NCBI GenBank assembly: GCA_965238275.1
Contig: OZ250186.1
Location: 1,920,001-1,984,000 of the forward strand
Length of the DNA stretch: 64,000 nucleotides
Origin: Nitrosopumilus sp.
Lineage (GTDB): Archaea; Thermoproteota; Nitrososphaeria; Nitrososphaerales; Nitrosopumilaceae
Reading direction: 5' to 3'
In this document: positions 3,336-54,763 of the stretch, in pieces
Numbering within the stretch: position 1 is the stretch's first letter
Layout: the number at the start of each line of letters is the position of its first letter
Program-made: the position numbers and the translations under genes
Notes under the pieces: model-generated
Seen by the model: the letters and a program-made list of their open reading frames with translations, nothing else
Databases searched by the model: none
Told to the model about the DNA's origin: nothing

Positions 3336-3353
3336 CATAGTACGAGGTTGGTG

Positions 3354-3500
3354 AATACATGATAACCCCACCCACCCACCACATGTGGCGGGCTGACCCC
3401 TGATTACGCATGGTCACAAAGACCTCGTTGGTGAATGGGGCTATCCGAGCTGCTGTGTTACTGGACTCCGAGTCCTGATAGATGTATGCAGCTACCGGCC
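3354..3500 (+). ncRNA. putative bridge RNA (target- and donor-binding internal loops) of the IS110 element
   Basis: Loop 1: CCCC/GGGG outer stem, GGTC-ACAAA-GACC inner hairpin, strands ATTACGCA and GTTGGTG match the flanks. Loop 2: AGCTGC/GCAGCT outer stem, GGACT/AGTCC hairpin, ATAGATG matches donor end. Conserved second copy at 54617. Confidence 0.8.
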
Positions 3501-12468: not shown

Positions 12469-13137
12469 ATGCTGCAGGAACTGGTATTCTTCAGGAACAC
12501 GTCAACCCTGGACGAGACGCTGTACACAAGTCCGGCCGGAAAGCTGTCGATACGGCAGACGATGATCCTCGGGGCCGGATGCGGCATTGTCATGCTGGCG
12601 GCCATGAACGCGTACAATGCAGACAACGACTTCATGGACGCGGCATACTACCTGCCGTTCCTGGCAATCCCGCTGGTGATCGGCCTGTACAAGCCCAAGA
12701 TACTGACCATGGACGAACTGCTCTATTCTGTCATGCTGTTTCTCATAAACGGCTCTTCGGTCAGGCAGATCCCCAAGCCAAAAAGGACCAGGGGCAAGGC
12801 AAGGGCGGTCAGGAACCCCAGCAGGCGCATTGGATATTACTCGCTGGAGCGGCAGTACGTTCAAAAGGAGAGGATCAGGGTCGTCACGGTGTCAGACCTG
12901 GGCAAGCCGACCAGGCTCAAACTGGTAATACAAAAGCCCGACGGCGGGGCCTTCAGGAACCATTTCGTCTCGATATACCTGGACGGCGTGCGCGTGACTG
13001 CGATGACCACGGACAGTGCAGGAGAAGTCGAGGCGCTCGTGACGCCAGGAACTGAAGGTAATCATTCACTGAAAGTCATGGCGAAAGGATACGACGAACC
13101 CGTCATAGACGGCGACATCAGGTTCAGGCGGGGATGA
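12469..13137 (+). CDS. PrgI/VirB3-like membrane protein with C-terminal beta domain (conjugation-related, tentative)
   Basis: LSIRQTMILG followed by two TM helices, typical PrgI layout; start chosen at ATG 12469. Confidence 0.5.
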   Translation: MLQELVFFRNTSTLDETLYTSPAGKLSIRQTMILGAGCGIVMLAAMNAYNADNDFMDAAYYLPFLAIPLVIGLYKPKILTMDELLYSVMLFLINGSSVRQIPKPKRTRGKARAVRNPSRRIGYYSLERQYVQKERIRVVTVSDLGKPTRLKLVIQKPDGGAFRNHFVSIYLDGVRVTAMTTDSAGEVEALVTPGTEGNHSLKVMAKGYDEPVIDGDIRFRRG

Positions 13138-13149
13138 GGTATTGTTAAC

Positions 13150-14496
13150 TTATCGGGGCCTGCCGGCAGTCCGGCGACTCCGAGCAATTTGAGATATCAC
13201 AAGACAGCCGCGCACTGGCGGTTCCTTCCTTGGAAGCCCGAACAAACGGGCGCCGTCCTCATGCTTGACGACGGCCATACCTGCCGCCGCGCCTCCCCGA
13301 ACCGATATGTTCACGGAGGCGTTTTCGTCCGCGTTCATTACGGACCTGCAACACGTGCAGTGGAAATCTGCCTGGTTTTCCCGGGATCTGGAATCTGTCG
13401 TTCCGCACCGGCAACATGTTTGGGACGTGTATGCTGCGGGCACAGTTTCATGGAGCGTGCCACTTTTTCTACAGCCCCATTCTATCGTATCCAGAAGGGA
13501 GCCGACGCGGGCGTATGCCATGCTGCGGTTCAAACCACGGTTACCCGGTGTGTCGTATTTTCGCTTCGCCATTGCCTGAAGGTTGAGATCCTCCACGACT
13601 ATCTTGCCGGCAAGTCCGGACAAAAAGCTCGCAGCCTGGCGCTCCCAGTTTTGGGCGCGGTTTGCAATCTTTTTGGCCTTGGTCTGGATTCTCCGGGTTA
13701 TTGATTTGTAATCCCGGGAGCCGCGCTTTTTCTTGGCTCGCTTGGAGTACAGTCTGGCAATGTCATCGTCCTTGTACCTTCTTGCATTTTCGGGCGGATC
13801 CATGAACCAGACGTGGTTGGTTCCGTCCTGCTGGAGCGAGACTGCCAGCGCGTGCTTTACGCCTGCGTCTATGCCGATAATCGGCCCGCCCACCTTCTTC
13901 TTCGGGGGATCGGGCTCGCGTATGCTGACGTGCAGTTCAATGTGGCCGTTCTTCCTTGTTAACGAGTACGACCGCATGTCCATGTCAGGCAGTCTGCGCG
14001 CGAGTTGGACTTGGCCAACGCCTGGAAGGTACAGCTTTCCACCATTCCGTGGTTTGGGTGTGGCCTGAGATATTACGGTATGCTGATTCTTGAACAATGT
14101 TTCGGGGTTCTTGCATCGTGGCTTGCGGCCGTCTTTGGCCAGTTTGCTTCTGGACCATCGCTTCTTCATGTTGGAGTATAGAAAACTGGAAACCGTTTCG
14201 CGCGCGCGGCAGCACGCGGCTCTCTGCAGGAGCGCGGGTCCCAGATTTTTGCCGCGCCTGAACTCGGTAAGCTTGTAATACGAATGGTACGTTCCGGGCA
14301 GGCTCGTCCATACCAGTCCGGGTATGGAATCCGGCTCCGCGCCCTGTTCCTCCAAAAACTCCCGCACGGTTTCTGCCTCGTCGTAGTACCACGCGACGGC
14401 GTGCTTGTAGACAATATCGTAATTTTTCCGCGCAGTCTCGAAGGAATCCTCGAACCTGGAATCATAGTATATTGGCACGCGGACGGTCTTGTACAT
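13150..14496 (-). CDS. tnpB: TnpB RNA-guided endonuclease (solo, IS1341-like)
   Basis: RuvC motifs GIDAG, VVEDL, NADENASVNI; YTSQTCCRCG...CTCC zinc finger; no adjacent tnpA. Confidence 0.9.
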   Translation of the reverse strand: MYKTVRVPIYYDSRFEDSFETARKNYDIVYKHAVAWYYDEAETVREFLEEQGAEPDSIPGLVWTSLPGTYHSYYKLTEFRRGKNLGPALLQRAACCRARETVSSFLYSNMKKRWSRSKLAKDGRKPRCKNPETLFKNQHTVISQATPKPRNGGKLYLPGVGQVQLARRLPDMDMRSYSLTRKNGHIELHVSIREPDPPKKKVGGPIIGIDAGVKHALAVSLQQDGTNHVWFMDPPENARRYKDDDIARLYSKRAKKKRGSRDYKSITRRIQTKAKKIANRAQNWERQAASFLSGLAGKIVVEDLNLQAMAKRKYDTPGNRGLNRSMAYARVGSLLDTIEWGCRKSGTLHETVPAAYTSQTCCRCGTTDSRSRENQADFHCTCCRSVMNADENASVNISVRGGAAAGMAVVKHEDGARLFGLPRKEPPVRGCLVISQIARSRRTAGRPR

Positions 14497-14556
14497 ACAG
14501 AATTATGGGCCGCATTTCATTTAAGCGCGGCAGAACTCATTACAAGTGATCACGGT

Positions 14557-15337
14557 CTAGGGTTTGGCAGCCTGTTCCTCATTCAATGGGATGATCTTGT
14601 ACGGCTTGATCCATGGAATATCGGGGTTGTTGGTGTATGCAAGCCAGGGCAGGTACTTCAAGCATATCTCCCGTTCTTTTTCCGTCAATTTGAAGAACTT
14701 GCCGCCTATCCGGCGCGGGGTCTCGGTCTCGTAATAGACAGAGCCCATGTTTATCAAGTCCTTTCTGTCAAAATAATGTTGAAGTTTAAACAATGTAATG
14801 ACAAGATCTTCTGTAATCATTTCCTCCGATAGTGTGCAGAGGATGCTGGTGCAATAATGACCATTTTTTGTCTCCCCTTGGAAAAGATCTAATGTTGCAA
14901 GTTTAAACAATGTAAGTGCCACTACCACTACCTGGATCATTTCCTCCGATACCGCTGGATATCCATAACAAAATGTCATTTCGCCCTGTGGGATCACTAC
15001 TCCCTCACAATCGGGATTGAGTTCCTTTTGGTTCGCTAGCATCTTTGGACCCAGGCCGTCGCGGAACTTGCGGAATGTGACGAAGACTTTCCTTTTTTTG
15101 TCATAATAACAATCATTCCAAATGTACTTGAGTGGGATATGGGCAGGGATTTTGGTAGATTTAACAACCGGCATCATTTCAGCATATTTTACATTTTGAC
15201 TGTAGTCTATCGCTAGACGTTGAAGAATCTCAAGTTCTTTTTTAGTCTCCTCGTTAAGTTGATCATTCTTTAGTTTTTCAATATCGTTCTGCAAATCCTC
15301 CAACTCCTTTTTATGAATACTAACCCTGTCCTTCCTA
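14557..15337 (-). pseudogene. paralog of 11042..12166, interrupted by TIR-flanked TnpB element
   Basis: RKDR...WNDCY...YETETPRRIGGKFF aligns to paralog; 5' part cut at TA 15336. Confidence 0.75.
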
Positions 15338-16783
15338 TAGCGGCGAGCGAAAGTTCGTGCAAACAGATCTCTCTGTAGCATGTCCTGATGCTCTTTCCGG
15401 CGCTCTGTCAGACCTTCCAATATTGTCGTCGTTGTCGGATCCAAGCCGACCTGTCGAATTGTTCATTCCAGAACTATCCGATCCGTGATCCTCGCGCCTT
15501 GTGACGACCTCGACACCTGCAATGGTGCCTCCACGATTCCCGTGGGCTTGGCCGCCAGTCTCCTCCGTATGGAGACAGTCATTATCCAAAATGTTTTTTG
15601 CCGCGTTCTTGTCGGCATGGTGGCACCATCCGCATGAGACGCAGACAAATGATTCGCCGTTCCTGGATTTCTTGTCCACTACCCCGCAGGCAGCGCATCT
15701 CTGGCTTGTATGTGCGTGTTCCACGCGTCTTGAAATTCCGCCTTTCTTTTTCATCTGCCATTCAAGCTGGATCCTGAACTCGCCCATTCTGGAATAGGCC
15801 ATCTCGCGGTTCAACCCCGTCTTTGAAGCCGCCCCGTTGGATCGCCTCATCTTGGTCAAATCCAGATCTTCCAAGAACAATACGGACAGTCCTTTTGTTA
15901 TCCGCCTGGCAATGTCGATCTCGTTGTGTTTTTGCCTGTTTGATATCTTTTTCAATTCATGCGTTACCTTGCGGCCGATCTCTTTCCATCTTCTGGAGCC
16001 TGCCTGGCATCTTGATCTAAGTGATTTCAGCTGATCAATCCTGTCGCCGTCATGCCTCTTGCAGCCTCCGGGGACATTGTGCAGTTTTTCGTTCCCATGC
16101 TCGTCTGCGACTGCCGCAAGGTGCCTGACTCCAAGATCCAGCCCTGCCTTGCATCCGCCGCCGCCACCACCGCCTGTCGCGGGTTCGGGGTCTGGGACTT
16201 CTATCTGCAAATGCAGTTTGAATTCGCGATCACCATCCTTGGTCTTACGCGTGACCTTGCCTGTGGTGTCAATCATCTGGAATGACACGAGCCTGCCTTC
16301 CGGAGCCTTCGTGCGTGGCCTTGCTTCCCAGAGTCCGGGCAGAAATACGGCTCCACTGTCTCGCAGTTTTGGCTTTCCGCGTGAATTCAGCGAGCGCAGC
16401 CTGGTTGTTTTCCTGCCGCGCCTCATCAGGCTGGACGGCTCGGTCCACCGATTGTGCTTGTACGTCTTCTTGTTCCCCAGCTTGATCTGCTTCTTGCGCC
16501 AGATGCGCTTGTTGTGCTTGAGCCGGTTTGCCTTGCGGAATTTGACTGCCGCCTGGAAAGCCTGTTTTGAGGCGGCCTCATGCATGTGGACGCTGCTGGC
16601 CAGGTTGAATTCCCTGCGCCATCCTGTTATCAGGTTGTTGACATCAAACTGTGTGATCCGTGAGTGTGCAAGTTTCATCATGATTGTCATGTCGTAAATG
16701 ATGTCTGTTTCCCGGGAGCATTTCACGATCTTGCGTGACAGTTCCCGAGATTGTGTTATCTTGATGATTTTACTGACAATCAT
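15335..16783 (-). CDS. tnpB: TnpB RNA-guided endonuclease
   Basis: GLDLG, FLEDL, HADKNAAKNI RuvC triad; TSQRCAACG...CVSCG zinc finger; stop codon formed by TSD plus flank. Confidence 0.9.
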   Translation of the reverse strand: MIVSKIIKITQSRELSRKIVKCSRETDIIYDMTIMMKLAHSRITQFDVNNLITGWRREFNLASSVHMHEAASKQAFQAAVKFRKANRLKHNKRIWRKKQIKLGNKKTYKHNRWTEPSSLMRRGRKTTRLRSLNSRGKPKLRDSGAVFLPGLWEARPRTKAPEGRLVSFQMIDTTGKVTRKTKDGDREFKLHLQIEVPDPEPATGGGGGGGCKAGLDLGVRHLAAVADEHGNEKLHNVPGGCKRHDGDRIDQLKSLRSRCQAGSRRWKEIGRKVTHELKKISNRQKHNEIDIARRITKGLSVLFLEDLDLTKMRRSNGAASKTGLNREMAYSRMGEFRIQLEWQMKKKGGISRRVEHAHTSQRCAACGVVDKKSRNGESFVCVSCGWCHHADKNAAKNILDNDCLHTEETGGQAHGNRGGTIAGVEVVTRREDHGSDSSGMNNSTGRLGSDNDDNIGRSDRAPERASGHATERSVCTNFRSPL

Positions 16784-16851
16784 ACCTGTAGTTGGGATTT
16801 ATTTTCTTAAAAAGGATCTCAAAAAATTGCACGAACTTTCGCTTTTCACTA
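15338..16851 (-). mobile_element. non-autonomous TIR element with TA duplication carrying only tnpB
   Basis: 25-bp TIRs TAGCGGCGAGCGAAAGTTCGTGCAA / TAGTGAAAAGCGAAAGTTCGTGCAA (21/25), flanked by TA at 15336-37 and 16852-53 (target CCTAGG). Confidence 0.88.
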
Positions 16852-17244
16852 TAGGATGCTGCCATACATCCCATGCATTTTTTGACACGTAATGCAGATA
16901 AGGGATCATGGACGTCGGGTGCGGGCTCCACGACAGCAACATGGAAGTCAAGGACTAGTGTCCTGCATGCGGTGCGTCTAAGACGGTACTGGTTCGTGTC
17001 CTGTTTGCCTGCAGCGATGGGCGGCCGTGGCAAAGTTGCCATTGGGCGGGAAAAATTTTTCCCATTCAATGGAAATCCGGGCAGCCGTGCAGAATTCGGC
17101 GTCATAAACTGCCGCCTGGCGTGCTGAAGGTGTATCTGGTGTGGATGCAAGGAATGCGTTGGCAACGGACAGAATCTCATAAAAGAAAGTTATAGCGCTC
17201 CCGCTATGCTGCTTAAATGCCGAGCGATTCTTGTCGGTGTGGGA

Positions 17245-37569: not shown

Positions 37570-38963
37570 TACCAGCAATGAAAAATTCATATCAAAATCG
37601 CTCATAAATTTTTGATGCAACAGCCGTCTCTGGAAATTACGAGGTGCGTTGAATTCCCAAATGACGAGAAAAGACGCCCCGAACATTAGACATTGCATGC
37701 TCTGGTGCGCCGTGCATGGCACACGCTAGGCGGCGTGGGTCCGGTGCGGTTTGATGTCGTTCTAGATGGCCCTGTACAGAAAGTTTTCAACGACCAGATT
37801 CGGTTTTTTGTACCTCGTGTACCTGGTGATCGCCTCGCGGAGCATGCTCAGGCTGGTGTACGGCACGTCAAGCACTGCCCGTTTGAGATCCCTCCAGTAC
37901 GTCTCTATGGCGCTCAGGTCCGGGGTCGCAGTTGGCAGGAAGACTATCTCCAGGCCGTCTGTGCCATCAAGCAGTTTGCGTATGTTTGATGCCCTGTGCT
38001 GGGAGGCCTTGTCCATGATCAGGCAGATCTTCTTGAACCTGTACATCGCCTGCCTTAGAAAGTCCTCAAAGGTGTCCTTGGTAAACGCGTCGTACTGCCG
38101 GAACATGCCCCTGCCGTCCGTGGTGATTAGTCCATGGATTATCGTCTTGGAGTGTGAGCCGGTGTACGTGAAAAACGCCCGTATTCGTAACTGTTCGGTT
38201 TCCCGAAGTCACCTCATGATCTAGGCACGAATCTATCATGGAACGACCGTTTTTATCGGCAAAACGTGATTTTTTCGTGCCTGTGGTTGGTTTTACTTCG
38301 GGAAACCGATCAGTTACCCGTATTCCCTTCCTGGTGTAGCCGCGTCTTCGCGGCCGCGCATCGGAGATTACTATGGACTCGTCCTGTATCGCTACGACTG
38401 TTCCTTCACTGTTCTTTTTTTTATAAGCTCTGGCATCTCTTTTTGGAATTTCCTGATCTCCTCGTCAGGCGCCCTTCTTGCATGTTTTCCTACTGGAACC
38501 TTCTGGGAATAGCCCCACCCGCGCAGTATCTGGCGCACATATCCGAGTTCGTACCTTACTCCGGTCTTCTGTTGGATGTATTGCTGCATCTCCATGCCCG
38601 TCCAGACAGGTTTCCTGCATGCGGCCTTTCTGATCTTCTTCATGTCTGCCTTGCTCGCCTTGGTCGGCCTGCCGGAACGCGGCATGTTTCCCAGCCTGTC
38701 AAATCCAACTTCCAGGTAGCGCTCGTGCCACTTGTAGCCCCACGAGGCTGACTTTCCCAGGGATTTTGCAGAATCCCTCATGGTTATCCCGTCACGTTTG
38801 ACTCTGATGATCAGCATCATGCGGTCCTTGGTATCGCAGTCTGTCTCAGCGGCGTATCTTTTCAACATCGTCTTGATCTTCATTGACTATGCTACGTGAA
38901 ATAAGCATAATTTCACATGGAGTTAAAATATTTTACAATCACATCAATTTTTCATCTTTGGTA
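37570..38963 (-). mobile_element. IS630-family element (orfA 38392..38883, orfB to 37762), interrupted by a MITE
   Basis: TIR TACCA(GCA/AAG)ATGAAAAATT, TA TSD; HTH orfA ending at an A8 slippery run; MDKASQH, PDLSAIETYW. Confidence 0.92.
38187..38317. mobile_element. 131-bp IS66-type MITE
   Basis: TIR GTAACTG(T/A)TCGGTTTCCCGAAGT; 8-bp TSD CCGTATTC at 38179-38186 and 38318-38325. Confidence 0.93.
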
Positions 38964-54509: not shown

Positions 54510-54594
54510 TGGGAAGGGCGGGATTTGAACCCGCGAACCCCTTGGAGAGAGAGGGGGGATCTTAAATTCCCCCGCATTTGGCCAGGCCGTGCTA
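54510..54594 (-). tRNA. 5'-truncated, degenerate tRNA-Leu(TAA)-like gene
   Basis: T-arm GCGGGTTCAAATCCCGC, 3' acceptor CCTTCCCA, anticodon loop TTTAAGA, long variable arm; 5' acceptor strand replaced by TIR inserted at TA. Confidence 0.6.
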
Positions 54595-54616
54595 TAGTGA
54601 AAAGTGAAAGTTCGTG
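54595..54616 (+). mobile_element. isolated TIR of the TnpB-carrying TIR element family
   Basis: TAGTGAAAAGTGAAAGTTCGTG, 21/22 identical to TIR at 16851..16830, preceded by TA. Confidence 0.85.
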
Positions 54617-54763
54617 AATACATGATAACCCTGCCCACCCACCACATGTGGCGGGCTGACCCCTACAATTGCATGGTCACAAAGACCTGGTTCGTGAATG
54701 GGGCTATCCGAGCTGCTGTGTTACTGGACTGCGAGTCCTGATAGATGCATGCAGCTGCCGGCC
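54617..54763 (+). ncRNA. orphan IS110 left end / bridge RNA with different target guides
   Basis: Scaffold nearly identical to 3354..3500; target-loop strands changed to AATTGCA and GTTCGTG; no transposase follows. Confidence 0.8.

What the first reader, a model, noticed from the sequence alone, without database searches (positions are those of the whole stretch)
15336..16853. TnpB packaged in a TIR/TA-duplication (IS630/Tc1-mariner-type) element: a Fanzor-like architecture in an archaeon
Seen: tnpB is the sole gene between 25-bp inverted repeats (21/25 identical, inner 17 bp perfect) flanked by TA, inserted in CCTAGG within a gene. The ORF runs through the right TIR and stops on TA+G. A third TIR copy lies at 54595, also after TA. 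Established: IS200/IS605/IS607 tnpB elements lack TIRs and TSDs; TA duplication with CTAG preference is an IS630 hallmark; eukaryotic Fanzors occur in TIR transposons with the omegaRNA ending at the element end. Inference: TnpB with a canonical D-E-D site was captured by an IS630-type element mobilised in trans. The omegaRNA should end in the TIR with guide ~(TA)GGAAGGACAGGGTTAG and a TAM near ...ATCC(TA). TnpB-IS630 links may already be reported in some bacteria, so novelty needs a literature check.
Basis: partly seen in the sequence, partly recalled or inferred. Interest (0 to 1): 0.88.

Follow-up and report, generated by a model that had tools for sequence, protein, structure and literature searches.

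The report
TnpB riding an IS630-type transposon
A 1.5-kb mobile element in an archaeal genome carries only an RNA-guided nuclease gene (tnpB) but has the inverted-repeat ends and TA duplication of an IS630 transposon, a combination first reported in 2023, so this is a clear new example and not a new kind.

Summary
Window 15336-16853 is a 1514-bp element plus a duplicated TA. It has 25-bp inverted ends (21/25 identical, inner 17 perfect) and tnpB is its only gene.

- **Copies.** The 2.2-Mb genome holds at least 18 copies with both ends. 17 are flanked TA..TA and one TG..TG.
- **Target duplication.** Two paralogous empty sites show the 2-bp duplication.
- **Transposases.** The genome has no Y1 and no serine TnpA hit, but 34 IS630-type DDE_3 hits. 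One 1.1-kb IS630 subfamily has intact transposases and ends that match the tnpB element at 21/25.
- **Relatives.** TnpB relatives at 73%, 55-57% and 45-48% identity in two other genomes keep the same ends.
- **Guide RNA.** The 3' ~240 nt form a covariation-supported RNA: 23 compensated pairs, 97% of cells paired against 32-47% in slid controls. It ends inside the right repeat.
- **Flank bias.** The base before the tnpB-5'-side TA is C in 37/37 insertions. It is C in 13/31 on the other side. This looks like a TAM.

The kind is already in print. Altae-Tran et al. 2023 (PNAS) describe IS630-linked TnpBs with symmetric ends, and solo TnpBs with ends nearly identical to those of transposase-bearing systems. 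I file it as a new, well-resolved archaeal member of a known kind, interest about 0.5.

The parts
15320..15335 (-). Predicted guide segment of the omegaRNA (16 nt of 3' flank, read on the minus strand); also the target in an empty site
   Evidence: Inference only, from the position directly after the right end and TA, and by analogy with Fanzor guide RNAs that extend about 15 nt beyond the TSD (PMC10711439, passages). No RNA ends were mapped.
15336..15337 (.). TA target-site duplication, right-end side; supplies the first two bases of the tnpB stop codon
   Evidence: 17 of 18 copies TA..TA, 1 of 18 TG..TG; empty-site colinearity.
15338..15362 (.). Right-end (tnpB 3' side) 25-bp terminal inverted repeat
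   Evidence: 21/25 identical to the left TIR of the IS630 subfamily D1 element in the same genome.
15338..15576 (-). OmegaRNA-like structured scaffold (about 240 nt), overlapping the tnpB 3' tail and ending inside the right TIR
   Evidence: RNAalifold on 21 sequences: 55 pairs, 23 with compensatory changes. Controls: 97.1% of cells paired against 31.8-46.5% when slid, and 0/500 shuffles reach the covariation score. Synonymous divergence is depressed in this region.
15335..16783 (-). tnpB ORF, 482 aa; the TnpB core is about residues 1-405 (15569-16783), and the remaining ~77 codons overlie the RNA scaffold
   Evidence: Pfam. RuvC D/E/D and the CxxC..CxxC zinc finger are aligned to solved TnpBs and invariant in 7 homologues: D216, E305, D391, C363, C366, C381, C384. 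Core dN/dS is 0.15-0.25 for the four pairs with dS of at least 0.30.
16827..16851 (.). Left-end (tnpB 5' side) 25-bp terminal inverted repeat
16852..16853 (.). TA target-site duplication, left-end side
16854..16856 (-). TAM-like flank (TCC on the tnpB strand, directly 5' of the TA)
   Evidence: The base next to the TA is C in 18/18 copies in this genome, 18/18 in G017 and 1/1 in L033. Position -3 is T in 15/18 copies here. TAM function is inferred.
14557..15335 (-). Downstream part of the interrupted host gene (unknown function)
   Evidence: ORF list; no Pfam hit above cut-off; the frame is restored with 16854-16951 when the element and one TA are removed.
54593..54619 (+). Solo TIR of the left-end type, preceded by TA; no tnpB behind it

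Best explanation
This is a non-autonomous insertion sequence of the IS630 (Tc1/mariner-like) type whose only cargo is a functional tnpB with its guide RNA. Step 1, inferred: an IS630-family DDE transposase encoded elsewhere in the genome (subfamily 'D', about 337 aa, HTH plus DDE_3) binds the 25-bp inverted ends and moves the element by cut-and-paste into TA, duplicating the TA. The ends and the duplication are shown; the transposase identity is inferred from end similarity. Step 2, structure shown but RNA ends inferred: transcription through tnpB yields an RNA of about 240 nt whose scaffold overlaps the last ~77 codons of the ORF and includes the right inverted repeat. It very probably includes the TA as well. 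The next ~16 nt of flank serve as the guide. Step 3, inferred: TnpB with this RNA recognises the unoccupied form of its own insertion site. That form is a TAM consisting of ..(T/A)-N-C plus the TA, followed by the flank. TnpB cuts it, and recombination with an occupied genome copy re-installs the element. That would explain why every retained insertion has C next to the TA on the tnpB-5' side only. The layout is the one described for eukaryotic Fanzors, here in an archaeon.
For: Ends and duplication:
- 18 elements have both ends; 17/18 are flanked TA..TA and 1/18 by a direct TG..TG, which fits a duplication and not part of the repeat.
- Removing the element and one TA makes the flanks colinear, without a gap at the junction, with paralogous sequences in 2 independent cases: 122/133 and 120/132 identical for one, 189/237 and 186/237 for the other.
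- Contigs from 4 other public runs match the element only, with different flanks; the matches stop at 15334-15336 and at 16854.

Transposase candidates:
- The genome is 99.9% complete in 1 contig, with 0 Y1_Tnp hits, 0 Resolvase hits and 34 DDE_3 hits.
- IS630 subfamily D elements (1093-1104 bp) have TA duplications and open transposase frames: 358 aa with HTH and DDE_3 domains, and 337 aa.
- Their ends match the tnpB element at 15-21 of 25 positions. IS630 subfamilies A, B and C match at 7-12 of 25.

Not a chance capture:
- TnpBs at 73% (L033), 55-57% and 45-48% identity (G017) lie in ~1.48-1.51-kb elements with the same type of TIR and TA.
- G017 also has 16 DDE_3 hits and 0 Y1 hits, and IS630 copies with related ends.

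TnpB function:
- The D/E/D residues and the zinc finger are conserved.
- Core dN/dS is 0.15-0.25 for the four pairs with dS 0.30-0.86.
- 10 of 18 copies keep the full ORF.

RNA:
- 55 consensus pairs, 23 of them compensated.
- 97.1% of cells paired against 31.8-46.5% when slid; covariation score 0.402 against at most 0.118 when slid; 0/500 shuffles reach it. One helix pairs upstream GAGC with GCTC inside the right TIR.

Flank asymmetry:
- C next to the tnpB-5'-side TA in 37/37 insertions.
- The equivalent base on the other side is C in 13/31.
- Fisher p = 2e-7, computed on the first 30/30 against 13/31.
- Other subfamily-D ends have C in 12/18.
- 5 further contigs in other runs also match through that base.
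Against: - No transposition, RNA 3' end, TAM or cleavage was measured.
- The transposase assignment rests on 25-bp end similarity alone; nothing beyond the TIRs is shared.
- No autonomous copy with tnpB and an IS630 transposase inside one pair of ends was found in this genome; the two long copies are explained by nested unrelated ISs.
- IS630-D ends themselves prefer C before TA (12/18; 5 of 6 in G017 by my reading). Part of the flank signal is therefore transposase preference.
- Cut-and-paste excision leaves a break or a footprint, not a clean empty site, so the benefit of TnpB is less obvious than for IS605. The 2026 review makes the same point (PMC13565253, section 6.2).
- The contigs in RNA libraries that run through the right end into flanks carry no strand information and could be DNA carry-over.
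- Rfam has no matching family.
Confidence: 0.75

Rival explanations
1. The element is as described, but TnpB is a passenger with no role in keeping the element. The C bias on the tnpB-5' side would then come from an asymmetric target preference of the transposase complex (the two ends differ at 4 of 25 positions) or from some other orientation effect, not from a TAM.
For: IS630-D ends in general prefer C before TA: 12/18. The symmetric counterpart is partly enriched on the other side: G at +1 in 9/18 and A at +3 in 10/18 by my count. No TAM assay exists.
Against: 37/37 against 13/31 is a far stronger asymmetry than a symmetric dimer would be expected to give. Position -3 differs between TnpB subfamilies that share the same end type: T in 15/18 here, A in 8/11 for the G017 ends found with the L034-type query. 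TnpB is under purifying selection and the RNA shows compensatory change, so the nuclease module is maintained for some use.
Confidence: 0.17
2. An ordinary IS200/IS605- or IS607-type tnpB element landed by chance inside a MITE or IS630 remnant, so the TIRs are unrelated to tnpB mobility.
For: Solo tnpB elements of the IS1341 group are common (recalled). The window holds a second, single-copy tnpB (13150-14496) without TIRs.
Against: At least 18 copies with distinct flanks all end at the same TIRs. Homologues down to 45% identity in other genomes keep them. The RNA scaffold pairs with the right TIR. No Y1 or serine recombinase was found in either genome tested: (G017 was tested for Y1 only).
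Confidence: 0.03
3. The TnpB has been repurposed (for example as an RNA-guided regulator, or as a nuclease acting on other targets) and the element spreads purely as an IS630 MITE-like parasite.
For: TnpB exaptations are known (recalled: TldR). The ORF has an unusually long tail that lies over the RNA scaffold.
Against: The catalytic D/E/D residues are intact and invariant. The guide position is flank-derived in every copy, as in mobile TnpBs. The copy number and the divergence of copies (down to 79% protein identity) indicate ongoing mobility and not a fixed host gene.
Confidence: 0.05

Closest known systems
IS630-associated TnpBs (the 'DDE-6' large branch) and solo TnpBs with ends like those of transposase-bearing systems: Altae-Tran et al. 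2023, PNAS (PMC10691335; passages read)
   Same: tnpB lies within symmetric inverted ends of an IS630-type transposon. The tnpB 3' end is within 250 bp of the element end. Trans-mobilisation of solo copies and a link to Fanzors are both proposed there.
   Different: The published text describes elements that also carry the IS630 DDE transposase and a separate HTH protein. This family carries tnpB alone, and I found no autonomous version in this genome. Whether this TnpB falls in the DDE-6 branch could not be tested, because the supplements are closed. The TA duplication shown by empty sites, the RNA covariation and the one-sided flank bias are worked out here. I did not see them in the passages I read.
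Fanzor1 and Fanzor2* in eukaryotic cut-and-paste transposons: Bao & Jurka 2013 (PMC3627910, search listing only); Yoon et al. 2023 (PMC10711439, passages); review PMC13565253 section 6.2
   Same: A TnpB-family nuclease is the sole or accessory gene of a TIR/TSD transposon. The TIR, and by inference the TSD, form part of the guide RNA scaffold. The 5' TSD is part of the TAM. Non-autonomous copies occur.
   Different: The host is an archaeon. The protein is TnpB-sized, with canonical RuvC residues. Its best PDB sequence matches are bacterial ISDra2-type TnpBs. No eukaryotic features were examined.
IS200/IS605 (IS1341-group) and IS607 solo tnpB elements
   Same: Same protein family; the omegaRNA is at the 3' end with a flank-derived guide; many non-autonomous copies.
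   Different: This element has 25-bp TIRs and a TA duplication, and neither TnpA type was found in the genome.
IS630-family insertion sequences and their MITE derivatives
   Same: 25-bp TIRs beginning TAG/TAC, a TA duplication, a leaning towards CTAG targets, and trans-mobilised non-autonomous derivatives.
   Different: The cargo is an RNA-guided nuclease, not a transposase or nothing. The flank preference is one-sided.

Membership tests
TnpB (OMEGA RNA-guided nuclease) | OrfB_IS605 RuvC-like domain plus zinc-ribbon TNB domain | tested here: met
   PF01385 at 44.7 bits (cut-off 30.5); PF07282 at 59.9 bits (cut-off 26.3).
TnpB (OMEGA RNA-guided nuclease) | Catalytic D-E-D triad and CxxC..CxxC zinc finger | tested here: met
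   Aligned to solved ISDra2-type TnpBs. D216, E305, D391, C363, C366, C381 and C384 are invariant in 7 homologues.
TnpB (OMEGA RNA-guided nuclease) | Structured omegaRNA at the 3' end reaching the element end | tested here: met
   Covariation. The RNA itself was not observed with strand or end information.
TnpB (OMEGA RNA-guided nuclease) | RNA-guided, TAM-dependent DNA cleavage | not testable with these tools
   Only an indirect flank bias is available.
IS630 family (as a non-autonomous derivative) | Terminal inverted repeats related to those of an IS630 transposase-bearing element | tested here: met
   21/25 identical to the D1 left end; 7-12/25 to IS630 subfamilies A, B and C.
IS630 family (as a non-autonomous derivative) | TA target-site duplication | tested here: met
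   17/18 copies TA..TA; two paralogous empty sites.
IS630 family (as a non-autonomous derivative) | Encodes a DDE_3 transposase | tested here: not met
   tnpB is the only gene between the ends. The element is therefore non-autonomous and not an IS630 member in the strict sense.
IS630 family (as a non-autonomous derivative) | Mobilised by an IS630 transposase | not testable with these tools
   Candidate transposases are intact in the genome.
IS200/IS605 | Y1 (HUH) TnpA in the element or genome; no TIR, no TSD; insertion 3' of a fixed tetra- or pentanucleotide | tested here: not met
   0 PF01797 hits in G000 and in G017. TIRs and a TSD are present.
IS607 | Serine recombinase TnpA | tested here: not met
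   0 PF00239 hits in G000.
'DDE-6' TnpB branch of Altae-Tran et al. 2023 | Phylogenetic placement among IS630-linked TnpBs | not testable with these tools
   The branch sequences are in supplements that are closed. Locus scans with alignment A2 found nothing in the viral or metagenome contig collections.
Fanzor | Eukaryotic or eukaryotic-virus host | tested here: not met
   The genome is prokaryotic (single 2.2-Mb contig). It shares a GTDB genus with a MAG whose record title reads Nitrosopumilus sp.. It works like a Fanzor element but is not one.

The most novel reading that the evidence does not exclude
The strict one-sided flank rule is C next to the TA on the tnpB-5' side in 37/37 insertions. 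The next informative base switches between TnpB subfamilies (T in one, A in another). This would be natural evidence that a prokaryotic TnpB actively selects or rescues insertions of a cut-and-paste DDE transposon. Under this reading an archaeal lineage reached the Fanzor solution independently or ancestrally: TSD read as part of the TAM, TIR and TSD folded into the guide RNA scaffold. Its survival would depend on two unlinked partners, a trans-acting IS630 transposase and its own nuclease.
Probability: 0.45. Interest if true: 0.65.

Novelty: new member of a known kind. Interest (0 to 1): 0.5.

Why it matters
TnpB-family nucleases are thought to pay their way by restoring transposons that excise cleanly, as IS605 and IS607 do. 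How they help cut-and-paste DDE transposons is an open point for the prokaryotic IS630-linked TnpBs and for Fanzors alike. This family offers a compact natural system:
- more than 18 copies with distinct flanks, the closest pairs 96-98% identical in protein;
- exact ends and a target duplication backed by empty sites;
- a covariation-backed guide RNA;
- a candidate trans-acting transposase in the same genome;
- a predicted TAM.

These features make the question testable in a heterologous host. The family is also a possible source of a ~405-aa-core nuclease with a short C/TA-type TAM.

Tried and rejected
- **Rfam** (evalue mode, 13000-17200): only a sub-threshold SECIS hit; no omegaRNA family.
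- **Autonomous version.** The 3.4-kb and 7.4-kb copies are ordinary copies with nested unrelated ISs. One nested IS sits inside the left TIR with an 8-bp duplication.
- **Locus scans** with the 7-protein alignment A2 found no relatives in metagenome contigs or viral contigs. The genome-contig scan found one locus, L033.
- **Word-based homologue search.** 24 clusters at 45% identity or more, then a drop to 34%. No names and no context.
- **Class-wide genome search.** 5 of 401 genomes at E <= 1e-40, counting G000. The 38%-identity relatives (G183, G152) and the 45% single copy in G000 (L038) did not show a pair of D-type TIRs. L038 has only a right-end-like end. G152 has a 13-bp inverted repeat of another sequence, which I did not follow up.
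- **Protein constraint on the ORF tail.** Third-position variability is only slightly raised, 0.22 against 0.18. dS in the tail is depressed, with dN/dS 0.5-0.8 in the diverged pairs. I read the tail as constrained as RNA; whether it is translated stays open.
- **Pseudoknot.** I looked by eye for a pseudoknot between the last bases before the guide and a loop. A candidate in this genome's copies is not kept in G017, so I dropped it.
- **Public runs.** No contig in the four laid runs covered the flanks of this insertion, so no empty or occupied allele comparison was possible. The RNA-library contigs show presence only.
Full report
**1. What is at the coordinates**

- Window 15336-16853 holds a 1514-bp element, 15338-16851, written TAG...CTA on the tnpB strand. 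It is flanked by TA on both sides.
- Its ends form an inverted repeat. The repeat finder gives 30 nt at 87% because the target itself is palindromic, TCC-TA-GGA.
- The 25 nt after each TA are 21/25 identical. The inner 17-mer occurs exactly twice in the window, on opposite strands, where 0.01 matches are expected by chance.
- The only long ORF between the ends is tnpB: 15335-16783, minus strand, 482 aa. It matches Pfam OrfB_IS605 and Cas12f1-like_TNB above their cut-offs.
- The ORF has no stop inside the element. Its stop is the TA of the duplication plus the first flank base.
- Deleting the element and one TA in silico restores CCTAGG. It also joins two minus-strand frames into one ORF...WQHP|RKDRV..., for a protein with no Pfam family.

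**2. It is a repeated, mobile unit with a 2-bp duplication**

- The window lies in a single-contig genome of 2.217 Mb, GC 52.7%, 99.9% complete.
- Pattern searches find 18 elements with both ends. 16 are 1490-1666 bp. Two are enlarged by nested, unrelated ISs.
- There are 6 further right ends. Four of these adjoin full-length tnpB matches.
- All flanks differ. 17/18 copies are flanked TA..TA. One is flanked by a direct TG..TG, which fits a target duplication and not part of the inverted repeat.
- For two elements the flanks lie in repeated DNA. After removal of TAG...CTA plus one TA they align with paralogous copies with no gap at the junction:
  - 122/133 and 120/132 identical for one element;
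  - 189/237 and 186/237 identical for the other.
- Contigs from four other public runs, three of them RNA libraries, match the element at 95-99%. The matches stop at 15334-15336 and at 16854, with different sequence beyond.

**3. Which transposase**

- The genome has no Y1_Tnp hit and no Resolvase hit. The control genomes ring for both. It has 34 DDE_3 hits.
- These IS630-type elements fall into several subfamilies with different ends.
- Subfamily D is 1093-1104 bp. It includes one copy inserted in a (TAG)n run with a clean TA duplication. Two copies have open transposase frames: 358 aa with HTH and DDE_3 domains and 337 aa.
- Their 25-nt ends match the tnpB element at 15-21 positions, with 21/25 for the tnpB right end against the D1 left end. 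That equals the match between the tnpB element's own two ends. Subfamilies A, B and C match at 7-12 positions.
- With a degenerate D-type end motif and up to 2 mismatches, the tnpB right ends are picked up alongside the IS630-D ends.
- Nothing beyond the TIRs is shared.
- I conclude, by inference, that the element is moved in trans by an IS630-D transposase.

**4. Not a chance capture**

- Among 40 relatives, one genome of the same genus (G017) has many homologues, at 55-57% and at 45-48% protein identity. A named MAG record (L033, titled Nitrosopumilus sp.) has one at 73%.
- In all three groups the gene lies in a 1.48-1.51-kb element with the same type of 25-bp ends and TA.
- G017 has 16 DDE_3 hits and no Y1 hit, and IS630 copies with related ends.
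- The family is small and patchy:
  - 5 of 401 genomes of the class at E <= 1e-40, counting G000;
  - 24 protein clusters at 45% identity or more in the large protein collection, then a drop to 34%;
  - nothing in the viral or JGI metagenome contig scans.
- More distant relatives (38%) and one 45% single copy did not show a pair of such ends.

**5. The nuclease and its RNA**

- The RuvC D/E/D residues and the CxxC..CxxC finger align to solved ISDra2-type TnpBs. They are invariant among 7 homologues.
- 10 of 18 copies keep the full ORF.
- Between diverged copies the core has dN/dS 0.15-0.25 at dS 0.30-0.86. The protein is therefore under purifying selection.
- The last ~77 codons behave differently: dS is several-fold lower and dN/dS is 0.5-0.8 in the diverged pairs.
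- An alignment of this region from 21 copies (8 from this genome, L033, and 12 from G017) gives a consensus structure of 55 pairs, 23 with compensatory changes.
- With my controls:
  - 97.1% of cells are paired, against 31.8-46.5% when the partners are slid;
  - 23 covarying pairs, against 3-6 when slid;
  - covariation score 0.402, against at most 0.118 when slid;
  - 0/500 shuffles reach the score.
- The structure spans about 15576 to 15343 on the minus strand. Its last helix pairs upstream GAGC with GCTC inside the right TIR.
- The structure was predicted on this same alignment, which favours it over the slid versions. The number of independent pair types in several helices is still hard to explain otherwise.
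- Rfam holds no matching family.
- No strand-specific or end-resolved RNA data were available. RNA-library contigs that run from tnpB through the right end into flanks (for example 228 nt beyond it) are only weakly suggestive.

**6. A one-sided flank rule**

- Oriented on the tnpB strand, the base immediately 5' of the left TA is C in:
  - 18/18 copies here;
  - 18/18 left ends in G017;
  - the one L033 copy.
- The mirror position at the right end is C (read outward) in 9/18, 4/12 and 0/1.
- Fisher p = 2e-7, computed for the first 30/30 against 13/31.
- Other D-type ends in this genome have C in 12/18. The transposase therefore seems to lean towards CTAG, but that cannot give 37/37 on one side only.
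- Five more contigs in other runs match one base past the left TA, through that same base.
- Position -3 is T in 15/18 copies here. It is A in 8/11 of the G017 left ends found with the L034-type query.
- The simplest reading is a TAM of the form (T/A)-N-C followed by the TA.
- In an empty site this motif sits directly before the 3' flank that the RNA would carry as guide. In the occupied site the same flank is preceded by ...GCTA-TA, which lacks the C.
It is supported indirectly but not shown.

**7. Comparison with what is known**

- Altae-Tran et al. 2023 (PMC10691335; passages read) report:
  - a large TnpB branch, DDE-6, associated with IS630-family DDE transposases and a separate HTH protein;
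  - tnpB 3' ends within 250 bp of the transposon end in most examined cases;
  - solo TnpBs surrounded by ends nearly identical to those of transposase-bearing systems;
  - a possible link to Fanzors.
- A 2026 review repeats this and states that in Fanzors the 5' TSD is read as part of the TAM and the 3' TSD sits in the RNA scaffold (PMC13565253, section 6.2 read).
- Yoon et al. 2023 show TIR and TSD within Fanzor guide RNA scaffolds, with guides reaching about 15 nt beyond the TSD (PMC10711439, passages).
- The kind of element is therefore already known.
- What this case adds:
  - a high-copy archaeal, strictly non-autonomous family;
  - ends and target duplication backed by paralogous empty sites;
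  - an identified candidate helper IS in the same genome;
  - a covariation-backed RNA;
  - a natural TAM-like signal.
- I could not test whether the protein belongs to the DDE-6 branch, because the supplements are closed.

**8. Verdict**

- Observation: confirmed.
- Interpretation: supported.
- Novelty: new member of a known kind.
- Interest: about 0.5. It is still above ordinary, because the system is unusually clean for testing how a TnpB cooperates with a cut-and-paste DDE transposon.

Noticed in passing
window 13150-14496 (minus strand): A second tnpB (448 aa, about 34% identical to the first) lies directly downstream of the interrupted host gene. It is single-copy and has no detectable inverted ends. 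A ~170-bp stretch elsewhere in the genome (G000 1198749-1198917) matches both of its borders, like an ends-only miniature derivative.
   Followed up: partly
window 54610-54760, also window 3347-3500 and three other genome sites: A ~150-nt conserved, hairpin-rich repeat occurs 5 times in the genome (80-92% identical). It lies directly behind the solo TIR at 54593. ARAGORN finds no tRNA there. It may be a small RNA gene or a MITE.
   Followed up: partly
whole genome; in the window at about 37846-38160 (minus strand) and across the window start: The genome is very rich in IS630-type transposases: 34 DDE_3 hits in at least four end-sequence subfamilies. It also has 34 TnpB zinc-ribbon hits of several families.
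   Followed up: partly
window 15335-15569 (tnpB tail) and homologues: The tnpB frame stays open across nearly the whole RNA scaffold in every subfamily. In this genome's family it has no stop of its own and ends on TA plus a flank base, so 7 of 18 copies read on into the flank. In G017 it ends on a TAG about 35 nt before the element end. It is unclear whether the tail is translated.
   Followed up: partly
G000 951043-952543: This copy has a diverged left end and core (dS 0.86 against the window copy) but a tail and right end with dS 0. It looks like a recombinant between subfamilies.
   Followed up: no
G000 1873225-1873252 and 1874350-1874360: The IS630-D1 copy sits inside a (TAG)n microsatellite. 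A further solo D-type end lies 266 bp upstream, at 1872987.
   Followed up: no
G000 614931-616532, 642579-645958, 1724459-1726124: Two copies share a ~90-bp insertion at element position 980 that truncates tnpB. Another copy has a ~165-bp replacement near the RNA region. These may be small MITE insertions.
   Followed up: no
L054 (G152) about 1017-2450: A 38%-identical tnpB in another genus is bracketed by a perfect 13-bp inverted repeat (GGGAATTATATAC) 1434 bp apart. This may be another TIR-bounded tnpB family.
   Followed up: no
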